Below, piece after piece: positions 44,772 through 45,680 of a DNA stretch of 64,000 nucleotides. Both the position numbers and the translations under genes were made by a program. This DNA is from Escherichia coli (GTDB lineage Bacteria > Pseudomonadota > Gammaproteobacteria > Enterobacterales > Enterobacteriaceae): assembly GCF_050920415.1 (NCBI RefSeq), contig NZ_CP169309.1; one strand, written 5' to 3'. Each line of letters starts with the position of its first letter. The first letter of the stretch is position 1. Below the pieces are notes generated by a model. That model worked only from the letters and a program-made list of their open reading frames with translations, ran no database searches and was not told the origin of the DNA.

Positions 44772-45680
44772 TTAGTTAATCAGCTTATCAAGCTCAGCAA
44801 GAGGTAAATTTGCCATCTCTGCAACGTCTTCCCGAGACATTCCTTTACTCAGAAGACGCAGGGCGAATTCTTGCCTTTCCTCCTGTCTTCCCAGCTGAAT
44901 CCCCTTCTCAATCCCCTTCTCAATTCCCTTCTCTTCAAACCACTGCGCCAGCGTCATCATAGACTCCCCTCCCGTTTCCCTGTCTCTCACCACACCATAA
45001 AACAAATCCGCTTGTTCAGTATGACCACGTTGCAGCATATAGTTTTGCATGGCAACTAACTGACTTCCGCTAGTGTACCCTTCGTCAATCAGCGTGACCA
45101 GTTTCTCCAGCAATAACATTAAGTCGCGCTGGCGAATATGTTTTTGCAGCAGTTCGAGAATCGCAATCCGCCGATGTTGCATGATTTCGTCATCCGGTGT
45201 GATAGTGATATCCACCAGCGGGAAAGGACTGTTATAGACGCGTCGCGCCAGCTCCGGCGAGTAAAACATATCAAACCAGCACATTGAGAGCGGATAAGGT
45301 GTGGCCTCGCCCTGATAAAACAGAATCGGCACCACCAGCGGCAGCTTATCGTGATCTGCCTCCAGATGCCGGTGCATGGCAGCAATAGAATAACGCATCA
45401 TGCGAAACGCCATTTTTTTATCCGGCTTGCTTTGGTGTTCAATCACAACATGTAGATAGCCCGTATTACCCTGCATTTGCACGGAATAGAGCACGTCAGT
45501 GCTGTGCCCTTTCAGGCTTTCTTCAATAAAACTCCCCGACTCAAGATGCAGCGTGTCGAGATCACACAGTTCGCGTAGCTCCGCTGGCAAATGGATATCC
45601 AGAAAGTCGCGAGCCGTTTCCGCGTGCATTAAAAATTGTTTAAACACCGCATCATGCGGTGTGGTACTCGGTGCATCCAT
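44772..45680 (-). CDS. rpnC: recombination-promoting nuclease / transposase_31 family (PD-(D/E)XK) protein
   Basis: 302 aa; YhgA-like architecture; position of yadD (rpnC) between panC and panD; contains an in-frame (KGIE)x3 repeat. Confidence 0.75.
   Translation of the reverse strand: MDAPSTTPHDAVFKQFLMHAETARDFLDIHLPAELRELCDLDTLHLESGSFIEESLKGHSTDVLYSVQMQGNTGYLHVVIEHQSKPDKKMAFRMMRYSIAAMHRHLEADHDKLPLVVPILFYQGEATPYPLSMCWFDMFYSPELARRVYNSPFPLVDITITPDDEIMQHRRIAILELLQKHIRQRDLMLLLEKLVTLIDEGYTSGSQLVAMQNYMLQRGHTEQADLFYGVVRDRETGGESMMTLAQWFEEKGIEKGIEKGIQLGRQEERQEFALRLLSKGMSREDVAEMANLPLAELDKLIN

What the first reader, a model, noticed from the sequence alone, without database searches (positions are those of the whole stretch)
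44897..44932. In-frame 12-bp x3 tandem repeat inside the rpnC-like nuclease gene
AATCCCCTTCTC is repeated three times (the third unit has one substitution), encoding (KGIE)x3 near the C-terminus. Short tandem repeats like this can expand or contract by slipped-strand mispairing and change protein length between strains.
Basis: seen in the sequence. Interest (0 to 1): 0.3.

Follow-up and report, generated by a model that had tools for sequence, protein, structure and literature searches.

The report
Variable KGIE repeat in RpnC toxin–antitoxin
The 12-bp ×3 repeat is real and its copy number differs between E. coli strains, but it is the published four-amino-acid "KGIE" repeat of the rpnC nuclease gene, which sets how the nuclease toxin pairs with the small antitoxin made from the same gene.

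Summary
They are the only such array in the 64-kb window and appeared in 0 of 200 simulated windows. The array sits in E. coli rpnC (yadD; 44772-45680, minus strand), between panC and panD, and encodes EKGI×3 at aa 250-261 of 302. It begins 9 residues after an in-frame Met-Met that follows a GGAGG-type ribosome-binding site. This is the start of the nested small protein RpnC_S.

In a systematic sample of 60 complete E. coli genomes, every length difference across this segment is a multiple of 12 bp, from -36 to +36. In 16 alleles read directly, EKGI-type units number 0 to 8 and total 4-aa units 2 to 10. A sister allele of the window's lineage carries 6 perfect units instead of 3.

All of this is published (Zhong et al. 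2023, PNAS). RpnC_S is an intragenic antitoxin of the RpnC_L nuclease toxin, and adding one KGIE to only one partner abolishes neutralisation. The window's 3-unit allele is rare (4 of 5,426 genomes), which is a minor point. Verdict: real, meaningful, already known. Interest 0.2.

The parts
44898..44933 (-). The 12-bp x3 tandem repeat. It encodes EKGI x3 (the 'KGIE' repeat of the literature) at aa 250-261 of RpnC_L, which are residues 10-21 of RpnC_S.
   Evidence: TRF, direct reading, unit-by-unit translation, uniqueness test.
44874..44897 (-). Two further degenerate 4-aa units, CAGCTGGGAAGA (QLGR) and CAGGAGGAAAGG (QEER). They continue the period-4 region. In other alleles this RQEx-type unit is itself expanded to as many as 6 copies.
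   Evidence: Unit parsing of the window and 15 other alleles.
44772..45680 (-). rpnC (yadD) full-length CDS: RpnC_L, 302 aa, a recombination-promoting nuclease and the toxin.
   Evidence: ORF list, Pfam PF04754, TIGR01784, RefSeq annotation of a gene 100% identical to the window's.
45060..45662 (-). N-terminal YhgA-like (Transposase_31, PD-(D/E)XK-type) nuclease domain, aa 7-207.
   Evidence: Pfam match covering positions 1-201 of the 203-position profile, E=3.8e-87.
44772..44960 (-). Nested in-frame ORF for RpnC_S, the 62-aa putative intragenic antitoxin. It starts at ATG 44960-44958 (M241), and a second ATG follows at 44957-44955 (M242).
   Evidence: Sequence. The repeat begins 9 residues after M241, inside the 8-20-residue range given for RpnS proteins by Zhong et al.. 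Expression of RpnC_S was shown for K-12 in that paper and was not tested for this allele.
44964..44972 (-). Shine-Dalgarno-like GGAGGGGAG. Its GGAGG lies 7 nt upstream of the RpnC_S ATG.
   Evidence: Upstream sequence ...ACGGGAGGGGAGTCT|ATGATG. Its function is inferred.
44778..44834 (-). Two short C-terminal helices of RpnC_S (residues 43-49 and 54-61). They give sub-threshold helix-turn-helix matches.
   Evidence: AlphaFold model. Pfam HTH_7 at 16.4 bits, below its cut-off of 23.8. Foldseek top hits are HTH domains, none significant.

Best explanation
The repeat is the hypervariable four-amino-acid (KGIE/EKGI) repeat of the E. coli RpnC system, an intragenic toxin-antitoxin and candidate antiphage module. 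The whole gene encodes RpnC_L, a YhgA-like DNA endonuclease that is toxic. An internal start at M241 makes RpnC_S, which consists of only the C-terminal about 62 residues. RpnC_S binds RpnC_L through the shared helical domain and blocks it. The repeat lies in the long first helix of that shared domain. Each 12-bp unit gained or lost lengthens or shortens the helix by four residues in both proteins at once, because both are read from the same DNA. Cognate pairing is therefore kept, while pairing with versions carrying a different repeat number is lost. Units are gained and lost as whole, perfect 12-bp copies, most likely by replication slippage or unequal exchange within the array. Shown here: the anatomy, the nested start signals, the variation in repeat number and the placement in a helix. 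Shown in the literature for K-12 RpnC: expression of RpnC_S and pairing that depends on repeat number. Inferred: that this particular 3-unit allele behaves the same way, and the slippage mechanism.
For: Gene identity and position between panC and panD are established. An in-frame Met-Met with a GGAGG-type site lies 9 codons before the array. In a systematic sample of 60 of 5,115 matching genomes, every length difference is a multiple of 12: -36 in 2, -24 in 5, -12 in 36, 0 in 1, +12 in 4, +24 in 1 and +36 in 3. Sixteen alleles read directly carry 0-8 EKGI-type units and 2-10 four-residue units in total, and all are annotated as intact CDSs. Closely related alleles differ mainly by whole units: L001 vs L011 by 9 substitutions and one 12-bp indel, L002 vs L007 by 16 substitutions and 84 bp, and the window vs L014 by 16 substitutions and 36 bp, with units A1B2 vs A2B4. 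Homologues in E. albertii, Salmonella, Klebsiella and Serratia show period-4 repeats at the same place. AlphaFold places the repeat inside helix 4-38 of a three-helix RpnC_S at mean pLDDT 77.5. Zhong et al. 2023 (PMC10400941) report that RpnC_S was detected by SPA tagging, that four-residue repeat number varies among strains for all E. coli RpnS proteins, and that inserting one 'KGIE' into RpnC_S or RpnC_LS alone abolished neutralisation in the dinD-lacZ SOS assay while inserting it into both restored it. The same paper gives the RpnA_S crystal structure as PDB 7TH0.
Against: Nothing was tested for this allele experimentally. No consensus sigma-70 promoter for a short rpnC_S transcript was found inside the gene. 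The internal transcription start is known only from K-12 data cited in the paper. The AlphaFold model of the 6-unit sister allele is of low confidence (pLDDT below 50 in the repeat) and shows a helix break at residues 21-26, so 'repeats simply extend the helix' is only partly supported here. Foldseek against the PDB gave no significant hit and did not recover 7TH0. According to the paper, antiphage activity was demonstrated for the plasmid system RpnP2, not for chromosomal RpnC.
Confidence: 0.9

Rival explanations
1. The array is a neutral length polymorphism in a low-complexity, glycine-containing linker. It slips because it is repetitive, and its length has no consequence for function.
For: One glycine in every four residues is unusual for a stable helix. 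The AlphaFold confidence in the repeat is only moderate for 3 units (block means 67-73) and poor for 6 units. Short tandem repeats vary whether or not they are functional.
Against: The published experiment shows that one extra KGIE in only one partner abolishes neutralisation of RpnC. All 16 alleles keep the frame and intact flanks, and the 30 nt before the array are 100% identical in the 12 alleles compared with the window's, in a gene that is about 95% identical overall. Period-4 repeats recur at the same position in distant Rpn homologues.
Confidence: 0.06
2. The array is a contingency locus, that is, a phase-variation switch. Slippage in the repeat would turn rpnC ON and OFF by shifting the reading frame, as in Haemophilus or Neisseria simple-sequence loci.
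For: It is a tandem repeat inside a gene of a defence-type system, and defence genes are often phase-variable.
Against: The unit is 12 bp, so every gain or loss keeps the frame. All observed length differences are multiples of 12, and all alleles fetched are annotated as intact CDSs.
Confidence: 0.01
3. The repeat is a DNA- or RNA-level signal rather than a protein feature. Examples would be a protein-binding site, internal Shine-Dalgarno-like purine runs that pause ribosomes, or part of an antisense ORF on the plus strand (44810..44962 or 44871..45059).
For: The units are purine-rich on the coding strand. Neighbouring RQEV-type units contain AGGAGG. Two mechanical plus-strand ORFs overlap the array.
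Against: Unit sequences differ between alleles at synonymous sites while the peptide EKGI is kept, for example GAGAAAGGGATT against GAGAAGGGAATT. This points to selection on the protein. The plus-strand ORFs have no homology support and change with every gain or loss of a unit.
Confidence: 0.02
4. The array is a sequencing or assembly artefact, or a chance repeat.
For: None.
Against: A 36-nt array is far shorter than a sequencing read. The same 171-nt segment occurs at 99.4-100% identity in four independent complete genomes. None of 200 simulated windows contained such an array.
Confidence: 0.01

Closest known systems
E. coli K-12 RpnC (YadD): RpnC_L toxin with the nested RpnC_S antitoxin (Zhong et al. 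2023, PNAS; PMC10400941)
   Same: Same gene at the same locus (panD-rpnC-panC). It has the same nested Met-Met start, the same MMTLAQWFEE lead-in and the same EKGI/KGIE unit at the same position.
   Different: K-12 has 2 units and the window has 3. The window's number equals that of the paper's engineered '+REPEAT' derivative, taking K-12's two units as its base. The gene is about 94% identical in DNA in the nuclease part and about 90% in the tail. The tail reads QLGRQEERQEFALRLL...LDKLIN against QQGRQEVSQEFAQRLL...IDKVINLI in K-12. The window-type segment is found in only 4 of 5,426 complete genomes.
RpnA_S crystal structure (PDB 7TH0), a dimeric three-helix bundle
   Same: The predicted RpnC_S has one long helix followed by two short helices, and the repeat lies in the long first helix. 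This matches the description in the paper.
   Different: No similarity was detectable here by sequence against the PDB or by Foldseek. The paper marks H261 of RpnA_L as the approximate position where four-residue insertions occur.
Stand-alone rpnC_Ss genes downstream of rpnC (annotated 'RpnC/YadD family protein' or 'hypothetical protein')
   Same: They have the same C-terminal domain, with their own variable four-residue units (FQKG, YQEA, RQEV).
   Different: The window has no such gene. Its 220-bp rpnC-panC spacer holds a dispersed ERIC-like repeat instead.
TAEL repeats in the HsdS subunit of EcoR124I and EcoR124II type I restriction enzymes
   Same: A four-residue repeat in a helical spacer whose copy number (2 vs 3) changes specificity. 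The Rpn paper cites it as the precedent.
   Different: There the repeat number sets the DNA spacer length that is recognised (N6 vs N7). Here it sets protein-protein pairing between toxin and antitoxin.
Simple-sequence contingency loci (phase variation by slipped-strand mispairing)
   Same: The presumed mutational mechanism is the same: slippage in a short tandem array.
   Different: Here the units are in frame, so changes alter protein length and specificity rather than switching the gene ON or OFF.

Membership tests
Rpn family (YhgA-like recombination-promoting nuclease; PF04754 / TIGR01784) | N-terminal Transposase_31 (PD-(D/E)XK-type) domain above the curated cut-off | tested here: met
   PF04754 at 291.6 bits (cut-off 21), covering 1-201 of the 203 profile positions. 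TIGR01784 at 290.7 bits (cut-off 52.1).
RpnC orthologue (yadD) | Located between panC and panD, and close identity to genes annotated rpnC | tested here: met
   panC at 43700-44551 and panD at 45954-46334 flank the gene. A gene 100% identical to the window's is annotated rpnC in NZ_CP169399.1. The RpnA equivalog model NF007361 scores 305.6 bits against a cut-off of 583, so the protein is not RpnA.
RpnL/RpnS intragenic toxin-antitoxin (Zhong et al. 2023) | In-frame internal start codon with a ribosome-binding site upstream of the C-terminal domain | tested here: met
   GGAGGGGAG followed by TCT and ATGATG at 44972-44955, minus strand. This is sequence evidence only.
RpnL/RpnS intragenic toxin-antitoxin (Zhong et al. 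2023) | Four-amino-acid repeats beginning 8-20 residues after the RpnS initiator Met | tested here: met
   The EKGI units start at residue 10 of RpnC_S. The criterion is quoted from the paper.
RpnL/RpnS intragenic toxin-antitoxin (Zhong et al. 2023) | [quoted passage not shown] | tested here: met
   Length classes from -36 to +36 nt, all multiples of 12. EKGI-type units number 0-8 in 16 alleles.
RpnL/RpnS intragenic toxin-antitoxin (Zhong et al. 2023) | Repeat lies in the long first alpha-helix of a three-helix C-terminal domain | tested here: inconclusive
   The 3-unit model has helix 4-38 plus two short helices at pLDDT 77.5. The 6-unit model is of low confidence and has a break in the repeat. 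7TH0 was not recovered by Foldseek.
RpnL/RpnS intragenic toxin-antitoxin (Zhong et al. 2023) | RpnS is translated separately and neutralises a toxic RpnL, and only when the repeat numbers match | not testable with these tools
   The paper shows this for K-12 RpnC with SPA tagging and the dinD-lacZ assay. It has not been shown for this allele.
RpnL/RpnS intragenic toxin-antitoxin (Zhong et al. 2023) | Internal promoter giving a short rpnS transcript | tested here: inconclusive
   The consensus scan found no sigma-70-like site inside the gene. The paper cites a dRNA-seq transcription start within all K-12 rpn genes.
Phase-variable contingency locus | Repeat changes shift the reading frame or promoter spacing to switch expression | tested here: not met
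   The unit is 12 bp. All length differences are multiples of 12 and all alleles are annotated as intact CDSs.
Known antiphage defence system (PADLOC-DB v2.0.0) | Match to a curated defence-protein model | tested here: inconclusive
   The only match is weak: candidate model PDLC01084 'putative invertase', E=1.5e-5, over aa 235-275, which is the RpnS region.

The most novel reading that the evidence does not exclude
Repeat number may define mutually isolated 'pairing classes' of RpnC. On this reading the array is turned over actively, not only by passive slippage. The turnover could be driven by RpnC_L's own recombination-promoting nuclease activity, or by exchange with rpnC_Ss copies through the perfectly conserved 30-nt anchor before the array. 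The effect would be to escape an RpnS-like decoy or inhibitor carried by a mobile element. The window's rare 3-unit allele and its 6-unit sister would then be snapshots of a fast arms race inside one allele lineage. Zhong et al. raise the self-diversification idea as speculation, and no test of it was found in the literature searched here.
Probability: 0.15. Interest if true: 0.6.

Novelty: already known. Interest (0 to 1): 0.2.

Why it matters
The repeat shows how one stretch of DNA, read as both a toxin and its nested antitoxin, can change the pairing specificity of both proteins in a single mutational step. This matters for understanding how defence and toxin-antitoxin modules diversify without becoming lethal. 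The principle and this exact KGIE repeat in RpnC were published in 2023. This analysis adds three things: an independent confirmation across 5,426 genomes, a natural 3-unit allele with the same repeat number as the engineered '+REPEAT' construct, and a within-lineage 3-versus-6-unit contrast.

Tried and rejected
- **PDB sequence search with RpnC_S.** It returned only a designed 'CAP repeat' protein (E=3e-4 over the short C-terminal helices) and an ArsR-type repressor (E=0.7). RpnA_S (7TH0) was not found.
- **Foldseek of the RpnC_S model against the PDB.** There were 0 matches at E<=0.001. The top hits were assorted HTH domains, and 7TH0 was not in the top 50. This gives no structural confirmation.
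- **AlphaFold of the 6-unit sister allele.** Confidence in the repeat was low and the helix was broken, so it cannot show that units extend the helix.
- **Promoter and terminator scan.** It found no internal promoter for rpnC_S. Inspecting the sequence by eye gave nothing convincing.
- **Pfam on the C-terminal peptide.** Only sub-threshold HTH_7, HTH_3 and DUF2802 hits appeared. The precomputed family PF27070 seen on homologues is not in the local Pfam copy, so it could not be named.
- **tblastn of RpnC_S against 50,697 phage records.** There was no match at E<=1e-3, so there is no evidence for a phage-encoded RpnC_S-like decoy. Sensitivity is limited because the query is short and partly low-complexity.
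- **PADLOC.** Only a weak hit to a candidate small 'putative invertase' model.
- **Supplementary files of the paper.** None are held, so its own repeat counts for RpnC could not be compared.
- **Readings considered and rejected.** These were a frameshift phase switch, an antisense ORF, and an artefact or chance repeat (see the rival explanations).

Full report
**1. The observation**

Tandem Repeats Finder reports one array at window 44898-44933 with period 12, 3.0 copies, 95% matches, no indels and consensus AATCCCCTTCTC. The raw sequence confirms AATCCCCTTCTC, AATCCCCTTCTC, AATTCCCTTCTC. This is the only place in the 64-kb window where three copies of any period that is a multiple of 3, from 6 to 30, occur with at most one mismatch. 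None of 200 second-order-Markov simulated windows contained a period-12 array of this kind. The whole window holds only three TRF arrays scoring 50 or more. The repeat is therefore real and not a chance event.

**2. The gene**

The array lies in ORF 44772..45680 on the minus strand (302 aa), between panC (43700-44551, +) and panD (45954-46334, +).

- The protein matches Pfam Transposase_31 (YhgA-like) over positions 1-201 of the 203-position profile at E=3.8e-87.
- It matches the Rpn-family model TIGR01784 at 290.7 bits against a cut-off of 52.1.
- It is 100% identical in DNA to the gene annotated rpnC in E. coli MFDS1022581.
- A homologue covering at least 80% of the query is present in 5,419 of 5,426 complete E. 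coli genomes, between panD and panC in every locus fetched.

**3. Anatomy on the coding strand**

The three units read GAGAAGGGAATT, GAGAAGGGGATT and GAGAAGGGGATT, which is E-K-G-I three times at aa 250-261. The single nucleotide difference is synonymous. Two more degenerate four-residue units follow, QLGR and QEER.

Nine codons upstream of the array are two in-frame ATGs (M241 at 44960-44958 and M242). They are preceded by ...ACGGGAGGGGAGTCT, where a GGAGG lies 7 nt from the first ATG. This nested ORF would give a 62-aa protein: MMTLAQWFE-(EKGI)3-QLGRQEERQEFALRLLSKGMSREDVAEMANLPLAELDKLIN.

AlphaFold2, run with a 34-sequence alignment of homologous tails, predicts one long helix (residues 4-38, containing the repeat) followed by two short helices. 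Mean pLDDT is 77.5. The short C-terminal helices give only sub-threshold helix-turn-helix matches, and Foldseek finds no significant PDB neighbour.

**4. Variation between strains**

A 171-nt query spanning the array was searched against 5,426 complete E. coli genomes, and 60 hits were listed at even steps down the ranking.

| Match length (nt) | Difference from window | Genomes in the sample of 60 |
|---|---|---|
| 135 | -36 | 2 |
| 147 | -24 | 5 |
| 159 (157 for a 169-nt query in one row) | -12 | 36, including K-12 and B |
| 171 | 0 | 1 |
| 183 | +12 | 4 |
| 195 | +24 | 1 |
| 207 | +36 | 3 |
| Two-piece, running into a downstream rpnC_Ss gene | – | 6 |
| Partial | – | 2 |

Every difference is a multiple of 12. 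The whole-gene search shows the same pattern, with lengths of 873, 885, 897, 909, 921, 933, 945 and 969 nt.

I fetched 15 other alleles and parsed them unit by unit:

- EKGI-type units number 0 (ETEC6335), 1 (VG38-53E1, ST540), 2 (K-12, 05-3629), 3 (the window, 2013C-4282), 6 (RMDEC465, PCN033) or 8 (SC455).
- Other alleles expand an RQEV-type unit instead, to as many as 6 copies.
- Total four-residue units between WFE and QEF range from 2 to 10. A metagenomic protein reaches 11.
- All alleles are annotated as intact CDSs.

Homologues from E. albertii, Salmonella, Klebsiella, Citrobacter and Serratia carry period-4 repeats of other compositions (QKGI, QEGK, KEGR) at the same position.

**5. 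Tempo and mode**

Closely related alleles differ mostly by whole units:

- K-12 vs ST540: 9 substitutions and one 12-bp indel.
- L005 vs L006: 16 substitutions and 12 bp. The extra unit is an exact adjacent copy of CAAGAGGTAAGA.
- VG38-53E1 vs SC455: 16 substitutions and 84 bp.
- The window vs RMDEC465: this is the most telling pair. The alleles share the QLGR/QEER tail and the same 220-bp downstream spacer and differ by 16 substitutions in 909 nt. The array is A-B-B in the window and A-A-B-B-B-B in RMDEC465, where A = GAGAAGGGAATT and B = GAGAAGGGGATT.

The last pattern needs at least two separate unit-level duplications and cannot come from one duplication of the whole array. Perfect adjacent copies are the expected signature of replication slippage or unequal exchange. 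Neither mechanism is demonstrated.

The window's own version is rare. Only four complete genomes carry the same-length segment at 99.4% identity or better, and only two carry the whole gene at 99% or better.

**6. What is already known**

Zhong et al. (PNAS 2023; PMC10400941) describe exactly this feature. They report the following:

- All five E. coli K-12 rpn genes contain an internal translation start that yields a small RpnS protein. RpnC_S was detected by SPA tagging.
- RpnS blocks the toxic endonuclease RpnL.
- RpnA_S crystallises as a dimer of three-helix bundles (PDB 7TH0) that dimerises through the long first helix.
- For RpnC they inserted one extra 'KGIE'. RpnC_S+REPEAT no longer counteracted RpnC_LS, RpnC_S no longer counteracted RpnC_LS+REPEAT, and matching the two restored repression.
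- The mechanism of expansion of 'these dodecamer repeats' is left open.
- Antiphage activity was shown for a plasmid homologue, RpnP2.
- They also describe the stand-alone rpnC_Ss genes downstream of rpnC, and fusions of the rpn N-terminal region with the rpnSs region. L012, whose tail resembles that of the rpnC_Ss genes, may be such a fusion.

**7. Most likely mechanism**

The array sits in the segment shared by toxin and antitoxin. A gain or loss of one unit therefore changes the first helix of both proteins by four residues in one step. On ideal alpha-helix geometry this is about 6 Å and about 40° of rotation. Self-pairing is kept, and pairing with versions of another length is broken.

K-12 has two units, so the window's three-unit allele has the same number as the engineered +REPEAT form. 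By inference, K-12 RpnC_S should not neutralise it. This step is inferred, because the tails also differ at other positions (QLGRQEER against QQGRQEVS).

**8. Rival readings**

- A neutral low-complexity length polymorphism is contradicted by the published swap experiment, by the strict conservation of the flanks, and by the recurrence of period-4 repeats in distant homologues. The 30 nt before the array are identical in the 12 alleles compared with the window's, in a gene that is about 95% identical overall.
- A frameshift phase switch is excluded because the unit is 12 bp and all alleles are annotated as intact CDSs.
- A DNA- or RNA-level signal or an antisense ORF is unlikely, because synonymous differences between units preserve the peptide EKGI.
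- An artefact is excluded because the segment occurs in four independent complete genomes.

**9. Limits of this analysis**

- No internal promoter was found by consensus scan.
- The 6-unit model is of low confidence and shows a break in the repeat.
- 7TH0 was not recovered by sequence or fold search.
- No phage-encoded RpnC_S-like protein was found.
- PADLOC gave only a weak hit to a candidate small 'putative invertase' model over the RpnS region.
- The strain frequencies come from a systematic sample of 60 genomes, not a full census.

**10. Verdict**

However, this exact repeat in this exact gene has been published. Novelty: already known. Interest: 0.2.

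Noticed in passing
window 53925-55200: A segment of about 1.28 kb is present in the window but absent at this site in the otherwise collinear E. 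coli MFDS1022581 chromosome. It lies in the cueO-gcd intergenic region. It matches elements annotated 'IS110-like element IS621 family transposase', which occur in 2,244 of 5,426 genomes at a median of 5 places per genome. The transposase ORF here is only 215 aa (54361..55008, minus strand), and the best match is 1 nt longer than the query. This copy is therefore probably frameshifted. A weak REP-like naRNA4 hit lies just outside it at 53846-53882.
   Followed up: partly
window 44556-44690 (rpnC-panC spacer): The spacer between rpnC and panC is 220 bp here but 73 bp in K-12. The extra roughly 135 bp is a dispersed repeat found at a median of 6 places per genome in 5,425 of 5,426 E. coli genomes. 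It contains AAGCTCCTGGGGATTCAC, which I recognise from my own knowledge as the ERIC/IRU core. The two relatives of this allele lineage that were checked (L014, L016) have a spacer of the same 220-bp length.
   Followed up: partly
window 44931-44960 (minus strand; ATGATGACGCTGGCGCAGTGGTTTGAAGAG): The 30 nt from the RpnC_S start to the first repeat unit are 100% identical in the 12 alleles compared, in a gene that is about 95% identical overall. Most of this stretch (TTGGCGCAGTGGTTTGAAGAG) is also present in the stand-alone rpnC_Ss gene of L004, and the Ss proteins of the five other loci with such a gene share the peptide TLAQWFEE. It may be constrained as a translation-initiation region, or it may serve as a homology anchor for tail exchange.
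   Followed up: no
L004, L005, L006, L008, L013, L015 (downstream of rpnC); L012: Many strains carry an extra stand-alone rpnC_Ss gene of 65-77 aa between rpnC and panC, with its own variable four-residue units (FQKG, YQEA, RQEV). L012 has no such gene, but the tail of its rpnC (…MATLSLTEVDKLINSN) looks like an Ss tail, which suggests a fusion. The window has neither. Both situations are described by Zhong et al.
   Followed up: partly
window 27754-27801: A period-18 imperfect repeat (TRF score 54) encodes the acidic tract [15 protein letters not shown] near the N-terminus of the 849-aa ORF 25347..27896 on the minus strand. By collinearity with L009 this ORF is mrcB (PBP1b).
   Followed up: no
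window 63578-63628: A period-21 imperfect repeat (TRF score 60) encodes a His/Asp-rich tract, DDHDHHHDDDDYHHHD. It is in frame with yacH (a DUF3300 protein), which starts near window position 62665 and runs off the window end.
   Followed up: no
RpnC aa 235-275 (window about 44856-44978): The only PADLOC match of RpnC is to a candidate small-protein model, PDLC01084 'putative invertase' (E=1.5e-5), and it covers the RpnS start and the repeat region. RpnS-like small proteins may therefore already sit unrecognised among candidate defence-island genes.
   Followed up: no
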